A stretch of DNA of 4,489 nucleotides from a virus (taxonomy: Duplodnaviria; Heunggongvirae; Uroviricota; Caudoviricetes). The stretch lies in the IMG/VR virus record IMGVR_UViG_2675903606_000011; one strand, written 5' to 3'. This document shows, in pieces, positions 1,505-4,489 of this stretch. Made by a program: the position numbers and the translations under genes. Numbering within the stretch: the stretch's first letter is position 1; every line of letters starts with the position of its first letter. Below the pieces are notes generated by a model, which had not been told where the DNA came from, searched no databases, and was given only the letters and a program-made list of their open reading frames with translations.

Positions 1505-1510
1505 CCTCCT
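1505..1510 (-). promoter_or_regulatory. Shine-Dalgarno (AGGAGG) for FI
   Basis: Minus-strand sequence ACAGGAGGCTGAG-ATG read directly; the SD sits 5 nt upstream of the proposed FI ATG (1499-1497). Confidence 0.7.
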
Positions 1511-1513
1511 GTG

Positions 1514-1543
1514 AAAAAAGACACGGGGGCATTTCGCCCCCGC
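1514..1543 (-). terminator. Intrinsic-terminator-like hairpin plus U-tract between E and FI
   Basis: Minus-strand RNA reads ...UAA UCCGUGAG CGGGGGC GAAAU GCCCCCG UGUC UUUUUU CACAGGAGG...; 7-8 bp G/C stem (plus 1525-1530 pairs with 1536-1541), 5-nt loop, then a U6 tract (plus-strand A6 at 1514-1519). It lies 8 nt after the E stop codon and just before the FI SD. Probably read through under Q antitermination; may act as a partial terminator or 3' stabiliser. Confidence 0.45.
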
Positions 1544-1550
1544 TCACGGA

Positions 1551-2579
1551 TTATTTCACCTGTACCACCACAAACTCATCAGGATCCGGCAGCACCATCA
1601 GCGGAGCGGACTGCGTCATGGTGAATTCACAGGACGGATCGCCCACGGTCAGCCAGTGTTTCGGGTAACGGGAAGAAGCCACCACTCCTTCAGACAACGC
1701 CTGTGCATCCTTAATGGCTCCATAGCAACGAATCCCCTCTGCCGCCGTATTCCCCAGCACCAGCATGCCCTCCGGCAGATAACGTTTTTCGGTACCGTCC
1801 TCTGCCACATAAGACGTTTTCGCCACCACAATGGCCAGATCGCCGTAATACCCCTTGAAGGACACCACTGCGCCCAGATCTTTCACTGCCGTTTCGAGTT
1901 GTGAATTTGAGCCGCGACGGGTATCCAGTTTTTCGCGGAACAGCTTAAAGCCATTCAGCAGACGCCAGACCGTACCGTCCATAATGGCGATATTCACAAG
2001 GCCGCTGGCCTGATCGCAGTAGAGGTCAATATCATGCGTCGGATCAAACGTATCACGGTCCTGCTCAGACCATTTTTTACCGTCAGCCTGCTCAATGTTA
2101 TTTCCTTCAGAGCGCCCGAAATCCACCTCAACCGTGTCAAACTGATCCCCTTCCATGGTGTATTTGCCATACAGCACGGCATTCACCGCCTGCATTTCTT
2201 CCACCTGGACAATGGCGTGCTCTTCCTGTTTGAGGTTATCGGTAATGATACGCAGACGACGGTAGGCCGGGTCGTTCAGCTGAGCCGGATCTTCACCAGG
2301 AAGGCGCTCAACCGCCTGCTGGTAATTAAATTCGTGTTTGGGCTTGACGTAGCCCGGACGTAACACGCGGGTTTCACCACCACGATGGCGCAGCACTTTT
2401 CCTTCAACGATCGGGGAGACATAGGCCGCCACCGGCGTTTTTCCGGTAATTTTGTCCAGCATCACCTCTTCGGTGTGGAAATTCACCGTACGGCGGAAAA
2501 ACAGCTCCAGAAACAGCGCACGGAATTTCACTTTTTGTTCGGTATAACCGAGTAACTGGCGGGTCGTAAACAATCCCAT
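1551..2579 (-). CDS. E: Major capsid protein, lambda gpE homolog (342 aa)
   Basis: ORF track 1551..2579(-). Long runs identical or near-identical to lambda gpE as I recall it: YVSPIV, PGYVKPKHE, DPAYRRLRII, VQVEEMQAVNAVLYGKYTM, KLDTRRGSNSQLETAVKDLG, MVLGNT, YPKHWLTVGDPSCEFTMTQSAPLMVLPDPDEFV. Lambda E is 341 aa. ATG at 2579-2577 is preceded by AAAGGAA; TAA stop at 1553-1551. Confidence 0.95.
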   Translation of the reverse strand: MGLFTTRQLLGYTEQKVKFRALFLELFFRRTVNFHTEEVMLDKITGKTPVAAYVSPIVEGKVLRHRGGETRVLRPGYVKPKHEFNYQQAVERLPGEDPAQLNDPAYRRLRIITDNLKQEEHAIVQVEEMQAVNAVLYGKYTMEGDQFDTVEVDFGRSEGNNIEQADGKKWSEQDRDTFDPTHDIDLYCDQASGLVNIAIMDGTVWRLLNGFKLFREKLDTRRGSNSQLETAVKDLGAVVSFKGYYGDLAIVVAKTSYVAEDGTEKRYLPEGMLVLGNTAAEGIRCYGAIKDAQALSEGVVASSRYPKHWLTVGDPSCEFTMTQSAPLMVLPDPDEFVVVQVK

Positions 2580-2597: not shown

Positions 2598-2629
2598 AAA
2601 AAATCAGTCAGGCCACCGCGGTGGCCTGA
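2598..2629 (-). terminator. Perfect 22-nt palindrome (hairpin) followed by a U-tract, between D and E
   Basis: Plus 2608-2629 tcaggccaccgcggtggcctga is its own reverse complement. On the minus-strand RNA it forms an 8-9 bp GC-rich stem with a tight CGCG loop, followed by CUGA and UUUUUU (plus-strand A6 at 2598-2603). It starts about 8 nt after the D stop and ends about 18 nt before the E ATG. Confidence 0.4.
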
Positions 2630-3020: not shown

Positions 3021-3623
3021 TCATGGCATGGCCATGAGCATTTTCACGTCCGCATCACCGTCTGCTGACGTCTGTGACACGCCACCCCGCACCGCTGCCG
3101 GTGAATGATTCGCCATGAAATGTTCAAACAGGGCGGTTGTGGATGCAGAGACCGGTTCTGCTTTATCCGGCGATGAGGACAGAATGTCGCGGGCAGCCTC
3201 CACCGTCATTCCGGGAAACGCCGCCAGTTTTTCAGCCTGCGCCTCAGCCCCTTTTGCCTCATCCAGAGCCATAATCTGATCACGGAGTGAGGGTCCGGCA
3301 TCCGCCAGTGGTGCAGCCGCAAGGATCGGGCGGGCTTTTTCCACCGTCATCTCCGGCATCGCCGCCAGCGTTGCCGCCAGTTGTTCACGACCGTTCGCTT
3401 CTTCACACGCCATAATGCGATCGGCTTCACTCTGCGTGGATGCCACCGGCTGCTGTGGTGCTGCCGCGGTCAGAATCGCCCGGGCCTGTTCAACGCTCAT
3501 GCCCTGTTGTCCTGCCAGCATCGTGGCAAGGTGTTCACGTCCTTTCGCTTCCTGACACGTCAGGATCCCCATCACTCGCTGGTTCTCCTGCGCGGCAGCT
3601 TCCGTTGCAGTTAATTGCGGCAT
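3021..3623 (-). CDS. Nu3: Nested in-frame scaffolding protein, lambda Nu3-like (C-terminal 200 aa of C, from internal ATG)
   Basis: Internal ATG at 3623-3621 (Met248 of C) is preceded by a perfect AGGAGG (3633-3628, 4-nt spacer), which itself encodes Gly-Gly of C. The product MPQLTATEAAAQENQRVMGILTCQEAKG... (200 aa) shares the C stop. In lambda, Nu3 is encoded in the same frame within the 3' part of C (about 200 codons), so size and position match. Independent expression is inferred from the SD, not demonstrated. Confidence 0.6.
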   Translation of the reverse strand: MPQLTATEAAAQENQRVMGILTCQEAKGREHLATMLAGQQGMSVEQARAILTAAAPQQPVASTQSEADRIMACEEANGREQLAATLAAMPEMTVEKARPILAAAPLADAGPSLRDQIMALDEAKGAEAQAEKLAAFPGMTVEAARDILSSSPDKAEPVSASTTALFEHFMANHSPAAVRGGVSQTSADGDADVKMLMAMP

Positions 3624-4364
3624 AGTGCCTCCTGTATCATGTGTGTTCAGCGCCGCATCAATCCGCTGCTGCATGTCCTGGCGAATCTCTTCCGGCAACG
3701 CTTCAAACTGATTGCCATCCACCTTGTGCGCCCCTGAGTAAATCAGCGTGATATCCACACCGGCCTGCGCCAGATGACCGGCATAGCTGACATGGCTCAT
3801 CATCACGCCAATGGAGCCGATACGGGATGTCTGGGTAACCAGCCGTCGGGAGCAGGCCGACGCCAGCAGCATGGCTGCAGAACAGGCCGTGTCATTGCAC
3901 AGTGCCCAGACCGGCTTCTGCTGACGGAGGCGGTAAATCATGTCAGCACAGTCAAACGCACCGGCGGCCTGCCCGCCCGGACTGTCAATGTCCAGCAGTA
4001 CACCCCGCACCTGGCTATCCGCCATTGCCTGCTGAAGACAGGCGACAATGCCGTCATAGCCTGTCATTCCGGAAAATGGCCGCATACCCCCCAGCCGGTG
4101 CACCAGCGTGCCTGTCACCGGCAGTACAGCAATACCGTTCACCACCTGGTAAACACGGGCCGGTCGTTTACCTCCGGCCATGTACTCGTCCGTTTCAGCC
4201 AGCATTCCGGGTGCATCAAGCTGTACCTGCTGTTGTGGTACCGAAAGACTTGCTGCCCCCATCTCGCGCCCGAGCGCGCAAAAGAAAACCCGCGCATAGG
4301 CGGGCTCCAGAAGCAGCGGTTCATTGAATGCTGCGGCAATAATGTGTGAAAGATTACGTCTCAC
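3021..4364 (-). CDS. C: Prohead protease / minor capsid protein, lambda gpC homolog (S49/ClpP-like), 447 aa, apparent GTG start
   Basis: ORF track 3021..4364(-). The N-terminal two thirds match lambda gpC from memory: AFNEPLLLEPAYARVFFCAL, VVNGIAVLPVTGTLV, MTGYDGI, GVLLDIDSPGG, AGAFDCADMI, KPVWAL, SRRLVTQTSRIGSIGVMM, ITLIYSGAHKVDGN. The first codon is GTG (plus 4362-4364 = cac); there is no in-frame ATG upstream of the conserved AFNEPL motif, and an in-frame TAG lies 12 codons upstream. GAGGAG sits 10 nt upstream. Stop TGA at 3023-3021. Confidence 0.9.
   Translation of the reverse strand: MRRNLSHIIAAAFNEPLLLEPAYARVFFCALGREMGAASLSVPQQQVQLDAPGMLAETDEYMAGGKRPARVYQVVNGIAVLPVTGTLVHRLGGMRPFSGMTGYDGIVACLQQAMADSQVRGVLLDIDSPGGQAAGAFDCADMIYRLRQQKPVWALCNDTACSAAMLLASACSRRLVTQTSRIGSIGVMMSHVSYAGHLAQAGVDITLIYSGAHKVDGNQFEALPEEIRQDMQQRIDAALNTHDTGGTMPQLTATEAAAQENQRVMGILTCQEAKGREHLATMLAGQQGMSVEQARAILTAAAPQQPVASTQSEADRIMACEEANGREQLAATLAAMPEMTVEKARPILAAAPLADAGPSLRDQIMALDEAKGAEAQAEKLAAFPGMTVEAARDILSSSPDKAEPVSASTTALFEHFMANHSPAAVRGGVSQTSADGDADVKMLMAMP
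3168..3578 (-). repeat. Three tandem copies of a roughly 40-50 aa motif in the C/Nu3 C-terminal domain (coding repeat)
   Basis: C residues 263-303 RVMGILTCQEAKGREHLATMLAGQQGMSVEQARAILTAAAP; 316-352 RIMACEEANGREQLAATLAAMPEMTVEKARPILAAAP; 363-399 QIMALDEAKGAEAQAEKLAAFPGMTVEAARDILSSSP. Consensus IMxxxEAxGxExxAxxLAxxPxMTVExARxILxxxP, period about 47-53 aa. Seen directly in the translation. Confidence 0.75.
3628..3633 (-). promoter_or_regulatory. Internal Shine-Dalgarno (AGGAGG) for the nested Nu3-like start
   Basis: Minus-strand ...ACA GGA GGC ACT ATG CCG... read directly from the sequence. This is the strongest SD in the window and lies inside the C reading frame. Confidence 0.6.
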
Positions 4365-4489
4365 GTGGTGTTGTCTCCTCTTCCGGCCTGCGACTCTCCG
4401 CTATCTGCTGCTGATACGCCTGCGCTATCCACACCGGACGTGAGAGTCCGGCTTTTTCCCGCTCTGCAGATTCCCTGACCTGCTGGCGG
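4354..4489 (-). CDS. B: Portal protein, lambda gpB homolog, C-terminal 44 codons only (5' end outside the window)
   Basis: My reverse-complement translation of 4489..4354 in the one protein-like frame gives ...RQQVRESAEREKAGLSRPVWIAQAYQQQIAESRRPEEETTPRET with TAA at 4356-4354. It overlaps the C start by 11 nt; allowing for the C N-terminus being about 3 codons shorter than lambda's, this reproduces the 20-nt B/C overlap I recall for lambda. The call is by synteny and frame quality; I cannot verify the portal C-terminal sequence from memory. Confidence 0.6.
   Translation of the reverse strand, partial: RQQVRESAEREKAGLSRPVWIAQAYQQQIAESRRPEEETTPRET

What the first reader, a model, noticed from the sequence alone, without database searches (positions are those of the whole stretch)
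1514..1543. Terminator-like GC hairpin plus U6 between the major capsid gene and FI
A 7-8 bp G/C stem with a 5-nt loop, followed by UGUCUUUUUU, sits immediately after the E stop and directly in front of the FI ribosome-binding site. In a Q-antiterminated late operon it is probably read through, but it could partially terminate or form a stable processed 3' end. That would lower FI mRNA relative to E, in line with E being needed in hundreds of copies while FI is a low-abundance accessory factor. The spurious upstream GTG start in the ORF track lies inside this hairpin.
Basis: seen in the sequence. Interest (0 to 1): 0.45.

Follow-up and report, generated by a model that had tools for sequence, protein, structure and literature searches.

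The report
Stem-loop after the phage capsid gene
A stable RNA hairpin followed by six U's sits between the major capsid gene and the next gene of a phage-21-like prophage. It is real and conserved, but it belongs to a kind of element that phage annotators have already marked, and its function has never been tested.

Summary
On the minus strand, 1543-1523 forms GCGGGGGC-GAAAU-GCCCCCGU. It extends to a 10-pair stem (1545-1520, -17.7 kcal/mol, 0/200 shuffles as stable), directly followed by U6 (1519-1514). It lies 7 nt after the E stop and 9 nt before the FI Shine-Dalgarno.

The window is a phage-21-type head operon (C/Nu3, D, E, FI, FII, Z). This hairpin and a second one between D and E are the two most stable local folds on the sense strand.

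- About 70 of 73 distinct capsid-gene downstream sequences from E-type phages carry a hairpin at this position. These include lambda, N15, phi80, Chi-like, Aeromonas, Xylella and Rhodobacter phages. Stem sequences are unrelated between clades.
- Stem substitutions keep pairing, and the sense strand folds better than the antisense.
- The U-tract is present in only about a third.

GenBank records of N15, HK97 and P22 already annotate the equivalent element; the P22 note reads [quoted passage not shown].

My best reading is an intercistronic mRNA hairpin with intrinsic-terminator anatomy. Q-modified polymerase would read through it. It would then protect the capsid message from 3' decay and stop unmodified polymerase. 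Function is inferred, not shown. Ordinary; low-to-moderate interest.

The parts
1523..1543 (-). Core RNA hairpin GCGGGGGC-GAAAU-GCCCCCGU: 7 G-C pairs plus a closing G.U, 5-nt loop
   Evidence: -16.8 alone; -17.5 in a 25-nt window, the best on the sense strand. Across 13 distinct 21-type sequences, 100% of pair cells are paired.
1520..1545 (-). Extended 10-pair stem (adds A1544-U1521 and G1545-C1520, with G1522 bulged). This register places the U-tract directly at the stem base.
   Evidence: MFE and centroid -17.7 kcal/mol, z -3.69, 0/200 shuffles. The outer pairs hold in all 13 distinct sequences.
1514..1519 (-). U6 tract (TTTTTT on the sense DNA strand)
   Evidence: T6 or T7 is kept in almost all of 49 21-type haplotypes. 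The tract is not conserved in other clades.
1551..1553 (-). Stop codon (TAA) of the major capsid gene E, 7 nt before the core stem
   Evidence: Pfam PF03864.
1505..1510 (-). Shine-Dalgarno AGGAGG of FI, 5 nt before the ATG
   Evidence: A ribosome-binding site is annotated at the same place in phage 21.
1116..1499 (-). FI gene (DNA-packaging protein FI, 127 aa), true start ATG at 1499-1497
   Evidence: Pfam PF14000. PGAP and phage 21 annotations use this ATG.
1551..2579 (-). Major capsid protein gene E (342 aa), bracketed by the two hairpins
2608..2629 (-). Companion hairpin between D/shp and E: TCAGGCCAC-CGCG-GTGGCCTGA, a perfect 22-bp palindrome
   Evidence: -17.4, second best on the sense strand; -17.9, z -4.98. 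A hairpin occurs at the same junction in lambda, N15 and many relatives.
2598..2603 (-). T6 run 4 nt after the D-E hairpin, upstream of the E Shine-Dalgarno (AAGGA 2592-2588)
   Evidence: In phage 21 and most relatives this tail reads CTGATTTCTG.

Best explanation
The element is an intercistronic stem-loop in the late mRNA. It has the anatomy of an intrinsic (Rho-independent) terminator and lies directly 3' of the major capsid gene. It is a positional counterpart of the stem-loops already annotated after the capsid genes of N15, HK97 and P22, and of the one present in lambda.

**Shown.** The hairpin exists, is unusually stable, is under purifying selection, and is maintained as a structure on the sense strand across very divergent phages.

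**Inferred mechanism.**
1. During lytic growth, Q-modified RNA polymerase reads through the element, so it does not end the operon.
2. Once transcribed, the hairpin blocks 3'-to-5' exonucleases after endonucleolytic cuts downstream.
3. Together with the twin hairpin after D, this leaves the D and E segments of the roughly 25-kb late transcript longer-lived than the downstream FI-to-tail segments. That helps supply the hundreds of copies of E and D needed per head.
4. In the 21-type lineage the conserved U6 additionally makes it a working terminator for polymerase that lacks Q, such as stray transcription in a lysogen.
For: **Stability and position.** -17.7 kcal/mol with 0/200 shuffles as stable. 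This hairpin and the D-E hairpin are the top two local folds on the sense strand. In a related complete prophage, the 19-kb morphogenetic region has strong sense-strand terminator-like sites only at D-E and E-FI.

**Selection.** Across 49 21-type haplotypes, hairpin sites average 0.38 minor haplotypes. The figure is 5.0 at E third-codon positions and 9.5 at FI third-codon positions.

**Structure is what is kept.**
- All stem substitutions preserve pairing: one G-C to A-U double change and three changes to G.U, with 100% of cells paired.
- In the lambda clade 95.8% of cells are paired. Covariation is 0.169 against 0.109 in shuffles, and 0/500 shuffles reach the observed value.
- 48 of 51 plus 23 of 23 distinct capsid-downstream sequences have a hairpin, with unrelated stems between clades. 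The median best energy is -15.4 against -8.4 for coding controls.
- Loops are often UUCG or GAAA tetraloops.

**RNA of the sense strand.** The sense fold is more stable than the antisense fold in 42 of 51 sequences (Wilcoxon p = 4.5e-6).

**Hairpin rather than terminator is the common denominator.** T counts in the 8 nt after the stem range from 0 to 7. Virulent Chi-like phages, which have no Q system, keep the hairpin with poor U-tracts.

**Precedent for the mechanism.** Selective RNA processing and stabilisation by intergenic stem-loops sets subunit stoichiometry in a Clostridium operon (PMC4423207, abstract seen).
Against: - No transcript 3' ends, half-lives or read-through measurements were available for this or any homologous site, so the function is entirely inferred.
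- From memory, not retrieved: classical lambda work (Sampson et al. 1988 PNAS) concluded that late genes are transcribed about equally and that translation initiation sets the protein ratios. That leaves little room for a large mRNA-level effect.
- A 3' hairpin protects everything upstream of it, not only E. A selective effect therefore also needs upstream cleavage, which is not shown.
- The hairpin always ends only 3-11 nt before the next gene's Shine-Dalgarno, which would also fit a translational role.
- The sequences compared are phylogenetically related, so the counts and p-values overstate independence.
Confidence: 0.45

Rival explanations
1. Partial intrinsic terminator (attenuator) acting during late transcription. 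A fraction of Q-modified polymerases stop at the U6, so fewer transcripts reach FI and the genes beyond it.
For: Canonical geometry in the 21-type lineage: a 10-pair G/C stem directly followed by U6. The U-tract is kept in nearly all 49 haplotypes. Leaky terminators are used to balance expression in T7 and in Pseudomonas phages (PMC9163698). The phage L authors list partial termination as one possibility.
Against: From general knowledge: Q-loaded polymerase is built to ignore intrinsic terminators over more than 20 kb, and the Q21 and Q-lambda structures show a nozzle that prevents hairpin formation at the RNA exit. Homologous hairpins in lambda, N15, phi80, Trabulsiella prophages and Chi-like phages have weak or no U-tracts yet are conserved. 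The E stop is only 7 nt from the stem (2 nt in lambda), so a terminating ribosome would mask the 5' arm.
Confidence: 0.2
2. Fail-safe terminator only. It stops polymerase that entered the head genes without Q, from stray promoters or host read-through in the lysogen, and has no role in the lytic mRNA.
For: Good terminator anatomy. The phage L authors suggest this possibility. The element is carried as a prophage in 1555 of 5426 complete E. coli genomes, so silence in lysogens matters.
Against: This does not explain why the hairpins sit precisely on both sides of the capsid gene. It also does not explain why virulent Chi-like phages keep a hairpin there, or why many temperate relatives lack the U-tract needed to terminate.
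Confidence: 0.15
3. Translational device. The hairpin insulates FI initiation from the heavy ribosome traffic on E by blocking re-initiation or scanning by terminating ribosomes. Alternatively, it keeps the U-rich FI ribosome-binding region free of upstream pairing.
For: Other junctions in the operon overlap or abut, while the hairpins sit in the two largest gaps (51-57 nt; the C-D gap is 36 nt and has no hairpin). Across clades the hairpin ends 3-11 nt before the next Shine-Dalgarno. The hairpin starts within the footprint of a ribosome at the E stop.
Against: D and E are made in near-equal amounts, yet they also have a hairpin between them. An alternative fold pairing CCGUGA with part of the Shine-Dalgarno is not conserved: the T1546G variants carry no compensating change. 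No direct data exist.
Confidence: 0.12
4. DNA-level element (protein-binding palindrome or recombination boundary between mosaic modules), or a neutral leftover with no function.
For: The D-E hairpin is a perfect 22-bp DNA palindrome. Head-gene modules are mosaic among lambdoid phages. Identity to phage 21 drops beyond FII/Z.
Against: The sense strand folds better than the antisense in 42 of 51 sequences, and single stem changes give G.U, which would be C.A on the other strand. Conservation exceeds that of synonymous sites. RNA-type tetraloops occur (UUCG, GAAA). The element is single-copy in the prophage.
Confidence: 0.05

Closest known systems
Stem-loops / putative terminators annotated directly after the major capsid genes of N15 (NC_001901, 7053-7073), HK97 (NC_002167, 5192-5213) and P22 (BK000583, 6102-6119, noted as 'similar in location to stem-loops in phage HK97 and phage lambda')
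   Same: Same position: the first nucleotides after the capsid-gene stop, on the sense strand, before the next head gene. Same build: a 6-11-bp G/C stem, a 3-5-nt loop and a U/C-rich tail. All lie inside a late operon. N15 also has the twin hairpin before its capsid gene.
   Different: The stem sequence here (GCGGGGGC/GCCCCCGU) is unrelated to any of them. The U6 tail is better than in lambda, N15 or P22. The phage 21 records (M81255, OL657228) do not annotate it. HK97 and P22 capsid proteins belong to other sequence families.
Canonical E. coli intrinsic (Rho-independent) terminator
   Same: A G/C-rich stem of about -17 kcal/mol, a short loop and a run of six U at the stem base, on the transcribed strand.
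   Different: It is internal to an operon that must be transcribed a further 15 kb or so. It has no upstream A-tract. In the core register 3 nt (GUC) separate stem and U-run. Termination was not measured.
Intercistronic mRNA-stabilising hairpins (selective RNA processing and stabilisation; e.g. the Clostridium cellulolyticum cip-cel operon, PMC4423207; from memory also REP in malE-malF and the Rhodobacter puf hairpins)
   Same: A stable stem-loop lies 3' of the cistron whose product is needed in excess. The hairpin is conserved without a required U-tract across the family.
   Different: It is not a repeated REP-type element, being single-copy in the prophage. No processed transcript has been demonstrated.
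T7 T-phi and the SPP1 terminator after gene 13 (leaky terminators after capsid genes of virulent phages)
   Same: A terminator-like hairpin directly after the major capsid gene, with downstream genes still expressed (SPP1: capsid gene ends at 8777, terminator at 8775-8815; T7 mentioned).
   Different: Those phages do not use Q-type processive antitermination, and T-phi acts on T7 RNA polymerase.

Membership tests
Intrinsic (Rho-independent) terminator | G/C-rich stem-loop of adequate stability with a short loop on the transcribed strand | tested here: met
   10-pair stem, -17.7 kcal/mol, 5-nt loop, 0/200 shuffles as stable. Top hit of the terminator scan.
Intrinsic (Rho-independent) terminator | U-rich tract of about 7-9 nt immediately 3' of the stem | tested here: met
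   U6 at 1519-1514 directly follows the extended stem, or lies 3 nt after the core stem. It is then interrupted by CAC.
Intrinsic (Rho-independent) terminator | RNA 3' ends form at the U-tract (termination actually occurs) | not testable with these tools
   No transcript data. Literature searches found no 3'-end map of a lambdoid late operon.
Post-capsid-gene stem-loop of tailed phages (as annotated in N15, HK97, P22) | Lies in the gap directly after the major capsid gene stop, same strand, inside the late/structural operon | tested here: met
   7 nt after the E stop. E identified by PF03864. Operon context shown in L154.
Post-capsid-gene stem-loop of tailed phages (as annotated in N15, HK97, P22) | The structure recurs at the same position in relatives although the sequence differs | tested here: met
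   About 70 of 73 distinct sequences have a hairpin. Pairing is preserved. Annotated counterparts exist.
mRNA-stabilising intercistronic hairpin (selective processing and stabilisation) | The upstream segment accumulates with a 3' end at the hairpin and has a longer half-life than the downstream segment | not testable with these tools
   Needs RNA-seq, Term-seq or rifampicin chase.
mRNA-stabilising intercistronic hairpin (selective processing and stabilisation) | The hairpin is selected independently of a U-tract | tested here: met
   T count in the first 8 nt after the stem ranges from 0 to 7. Only about 26 of 70 hairpins have 5 or more.
REP/BIME-type repeated extragenic palindrome | Many dispersed copies of a consensus palindrome | tested here: not met
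   One match in the 32-kb prophage locus even with 3 mismatches allowed.
Any curated Rfam RNA family | Match at or above the family gathering score | tested here: not met
   Nothing at the site. The only three weak chance hits lie elsewhere.
Hfq-binding 3'-end-derived small RNA | Terminator hairpin with a U tail of at least 6, plus detection as an Hfq-bound RNA species | tested here: inconclusive
   Hairpin plus U6 is present. A lambda RIL-seq preprint reports only PreS, LPR2 and 6S as Hfq sRNAs, but lambda's hairpin lacks the U6, and no data exist for 21-type phages.

The most novel reading that the evidence does not exclude
The two hairpins bracketing E, with their counterparts in essentially all E-type capsid phages, would form a conserved processing-and-stabilisation cassette. 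It would carve a long-lived capsid mRNA, with a 5' stem-loop and a 3' stem-loop, out of the antiterminated late transcript. Capsid-protein excess would then be set partly by mRNA decay rather than by translation initiation alone, as the classical lambda model holds. A variant of this reading follows from the stop codon lying within a ribosome footprint of the stem. The hairpin/U6 would then act as a translation-gated terminator that stops only untranslated transcripts.
Probability: 0.25. Interest if true: 0.5.

Novelty: new member of a known kind. Interest (0 to 1): 0.27.

Why it matters
Terminator-like hairpins inside antiterminated phage late operons have been noted for about 25 years without an assigned role. 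The phage L genome paper says "their roles are not known" (PMC8022706).

The comparison made here narrows the question. After E-type capsid genes, it is the sense-strand RNA hairpin that is conserved, not the U-tract. This holds across temperate and virulent phages, and the capsid gene is bracketed on both sides. That points to an RNA-stability or RNA-processing function that can be tested directly in lambda or phage 21.

There are two practical consequences:
- Gene callers can be misled by GTG/ATG triplets in the stem. Examples are the window's GTG at 1547 and the annotated FI start in phi80.
- Engineered phage or capsid-expression constructs that drop the intergenic region may change the E:FI balance.

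Beyond that the element is ordinary.

Tried and rejected
- **Rfam scan of the window at E <= 10:** nothing at the site.
- **Larger fold that pairs CCGUGA (1549-1544) with UCACAGGA and hides part of the FI Shine-Dalgarno** (MFE): rejected. Seven haplotypes carry T1546G without compensation, and the 1513-1510 region varies freely.
- **Terminator for a plus-strand gene:** rejected. The plus-strand ORFs are antisense artefacts. The plus-strand hairpin is followed by CTCACGGATT, with no T-run, and folds less well (-15.9 against -17.7).
- **Promoter at the site:** none.
- **Repeated (REP-like) element:** single copy.
- **GTG 1547 as the FI start:** rejected.
- **Literature:** nine full-text searches did not retrieve any 3'-end or half-life data for a lambdoid late operon. 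Liu et al. 2013 (PMC3718152) and Popovic et al. 2012 (PMC3442539) are not held. The DNA Research re-analysis has no per-gene values or supplements.
- **Lambda's own records** (NC_001416, J02459) annotate nothing at the site.
- **My first G.U count** was biased, because stem limits were chosen on the sense fold. I replaced it with a fixed-window comparison of both strands.
- **Tandem Repeats Finder** did not detect the Tri repeats at the DNA level.

Full report
**1. What the window is**

The 4489-nt window carries, on its minus strand, a lambdoid head-gene block:
- C/Nu3: 4364-3021
- D/shp: 2984-2637
- E: 2579-1551
- FI: 1499-1116
- FII: 1123-770
- Z: 754-179

. Pfam confirms E (PF03864), FI (PF14000) and D (PF02924).

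The DNA is 91-98% identical to phage 21 and to PhiR12-type E. coli phages. It is only about 61% identical to lambda at the protein level in E. The 321 nt around the finding occur in 1555 of 5426 complete E. coli genomes.

A prophage 97.7% identical over the window (L154) shows the expected late-operon layout. It has a lambda-type Q gene 13.5 kb upstream, followed by lysis, terminase, head and tail genes on one strand.

**2. The observation**

The minus strand reads TAA TCCGTGA GCGGGGGC GAAAT GCCCCCGT GTC TTTTTT CAC AGGAGG CTGAG ATG.

RNAfold gives -16.8 kcal/mol for the 21-nt hairpin. For the 34-nt element it gives -17.7 kcal/mol. There two extra pairs (A1544-U1521, G1545-C1520) bring the U6 flush with the stem. 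The z-score is -3.69, and none of 200 dinucleotide shuffles folds as well. In a 71-nt context the single-sequence signal is weaker (z -1.8). On its own, then, the fold is suggestive rather than compelling.

A simple terminator scan ranks the site first in the window. Among all 25-nt windows of the sense strand it is the most stable fold. The second is a hairpin between D and E (2629-2608, -17.4), and the third reaches only -13.4.

One detail needs correcting. The GTG at 1547-1545 abuts the hairpin rather than lying inside it. The ATG at 1499 is the real FI start.

**3. Comparative evidence**

*Same position, different sequence.*
- Phage 21 has the identical hairpin.
- Lambda has an unrelated one at the same place: AUGGCCC-UUCG-GGGCCAU, tail UGUUUCUCU.
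- N15 and phi80 have GUGGCCC-NNNN-GGGCCAC.
- An Aeromonas phage has GUGGGGCC-AGU-GGCCCCAC.

*Family-wide count.* I collected 145 loci encoding E relatives from viral contigs and from GTDB genomes, plus named phages at 24-47% protein identity.
- Of 51 distinct 63-nt stretches after the capsid stop, 48 contain a hairpin of -10.7 kcal/mol or better.
- The median best energy is -15.4, against -8.4 for 818 coding-region control windows. 69% fall below the controls' 5th percentile.
- The three exceptions have little or no intergenic gap where this was checked: the two annotated ones have -4 and 13 nt.
- A further 23 distinct sequences from Chi-like and Aeromonas-type contigs all have hairpins (-12.6 to -19.6), again with quite different stems.

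*Selection within the 21-type lineage.* Across 49 haplotypes the hairpin is far more conserved than synonymous sites. The mean number of minor haplotypes per site is 0.38, against 5.0 at E third positions and 9.5 at FI third positions. Every stem substitution keeps pairing: C-G to U.G, G-C to G.U twice, and one G-C to A-U double change in an E. coli/Shigella prophage. All 130 pair cells are paired.

*Selection within the lambda/N15 clade.* The two outer pairs covary (A-U / G.U / G-C, and U-A / C-G / U.G). 95.8% of cells are paired, and the covariation score exceeds all 500 shuffles.

*Strand.* With identical fixed windows folded on both strands, the sense strand is the more stable in 42 of 51 cases. 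UUCG and GAAA tetraloops recur.

These data argue for an RNA structure on the late message. They argue against a DNA palindrome or a chance feature. The sequences are related to one another, so the counts are not independent trials.

**4. What is and is not conserved**

The U-tract is lineage-specific.
- T6 or T7 is kept in the 21-type group.
- Across the family the number of T's in the first 8 nt after the stem ranges from 0 to 7, and only about 26 of 70 hairpins have five or more.
- Salmonella phage Chi and its relatives are virulent and have no Q system. They keep a strong hairpin followed by sequences such as CUUUGAGGAA or AAUUUAAAGG.

So the family-wide constraint is on the hairpin. In this lineage the element additionally looks like a competent intrinsic terminator.

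A second constant is location. The hairpin starts 0-20 nt after the capsid stop and ends 3-11 nt before the next Shine-Dalgarno.

A third is pairing with an upstream hairpin. The D-E junction carries one in the window, in phage 21, in lambda (a textbook A-tract/stem/U7 terminator) and in most enterobacterial relatives. In the related complete prophage, the 19-kb morphogenetic region has strong sense-strand terminator-like sites only at these two junctions. The next ones lie after J and lom.

**5. Prior knowledge**

- The N15 record annotates both stem-loops flanking its capsid gene as putative rho-independent terminators.
- The HK97 record annotates putative terminators after its (unrelated) major head gene and around its major tail gene.
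- The P22 third-party annotation marks a stem-loop after coat gene 5 as [quoted passage not shown].
- SPP1 has a predicted terminator starting at the stop of its capsid gene.
- The phage L genome paper notes a putative terminator at the end of the procapsid module inside the single-promoter late operon. [quoted passage not shown] It offers partial termination, or blocking of non-antiterminated transcription, as possibilities (PMC8022706).
- Phage 21 and lambda records carry no annotation at the site.

The kind of element is therefore known. This instance is an unannotated member, and the function is open.

**6. Mechanism**

My preferred account (confidence about 0.45) is as follows. The element is transcribed through by Q-modified polymerase and then acts as a 3'-exonuclease barrier. 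With its twin after D, it prolongs the life of the D and E segments relative to downstream message. Its U6 also lets it stop polymerase that lacks Q.

Steps shown: existence, stability, selection on sense-strand pairing, position, and independence from a U-tract across the family.

Steps inferred: read-through, processing, differential decay, and any effect on protein ratios.

Rivals:
- Genuine partial termination during late transcription (0.2). It is weakened by what is known of Q antitermination and by the U-tract-less homologues.
- A purely fail-safe terminator for lysogens (0.15). It is weakened by the hairpin's presence in virulent relatives and by its precise bracketing of E.
- A translational insulator or ribosome-binding-site context element for FI (0.12). 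It is compatible with the constant proximity to the next Shine-Dalgarno.
- A DNA-level or neutral feature (0.05). It is contradicted by strand asymmetry and conservation.

From memory, not retrieved here: Sampson et al. 1988 attributed late-protein ratios mainly to translation initiation on a roughly uniformly transcribed operon. Ray and Pearson (1974-75) reported differing functional stabilities of late messages. The first limits the size of any mRNA-level effect, and the second leaves room for one.

FI has a strong AGGAGG Shine-Dalgarno here, and I recall gpFI being made in substantial amounts. I could not verify this.

**7. Verdict**

This is a real, conserved, sense-strand RNA hairpin with good terminator anatomy. 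It is an unannotated member of an already recognised class of post-capsid-gene stem-loops, and its function remains untested. Interest is low to moderate. The main value lies in the family-wide pattern, which makes the old question of what these intra-operon hairpins do easy to test in lambda or phage 21.

Noticed in passing
window 2598-2629 (minus strand): A second terminator-like hairpin lies between D/shp and E: TCAGGCCAC-CGCG-GTGGCCTGA, a perfect 22-bp palindrome containing a SacII site, followed by CTGATTTTTT. At -17.4 to -17.9 kcal/mol it is as stable as the E-FI hairpin, so the capsid gene is bracketed. Lambda, N15 and most enterobacterial relatives have a canonical A-tract/stem/U7 terminator at the same junction.
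   Followed up: partly
L005 (phi80, NC_021190) 1636-1675: The RefSeq FI start in phi80 is a GTG that forms the 5' arm of the post-capsid hairpin (GTGGCCC...). The N15 homologue starts at the ATG 36 nt downstream, behind a GGAG. The phi80 start is probably mis-set, the same trap as the window's GTG at 1547.
   Followed up: partly
L096-L110 and other genome-contig loci: Short, low-coverage contigs in GTDB genomes of implausible hosts carry E-FI sequence identical to lambda. Hosts include Chromatium, Kitasatospora, Paenibacillus, Bradyrhizobium, Oceanobacillus and an Akkermansia MAG. Fourteen loci, counting lambda's own record, share its exact 78 nt. This is almost certainly lambda DNA contamination of the assemblies.
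   Followed up: no
window 3168-3578 (minus strand, within C/Nu3): The scaffold part of C/Nu3 has three diverged copies of a ~37-41-aa repeat (RVMGILTCQEAKGREHLATMLAG...; RIMACEEANGREQLAATLAAM...; QIMALDEAKGAEAQAEKLAAF...). They correspond to the 'Tri boxes' annotated as function unknown in phage 21 record M81255. Tandem Repeats Finder does not detect them at the DNA level.
   Followed up: partly
L154 3610-3628, 5791-5817, 27920-27939 and 28595-28616: In the related complete prophage, the other strong sense-strand terminator-like sites of the late region flank a DUF6645 gene between Q and the holin, and follow J and lom. These are positions typical of moron or accessory genes.
   Followed up: no
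L155 (HK97) 3693-3720 and 4444-4463: HK97's record also annotates putative terminators on both sides of its major tail subunit gene. Bracketing by hairpins may therefore be a general mark of the most abundantly needed structural genes, not only capsid genes.
   Followed up: no
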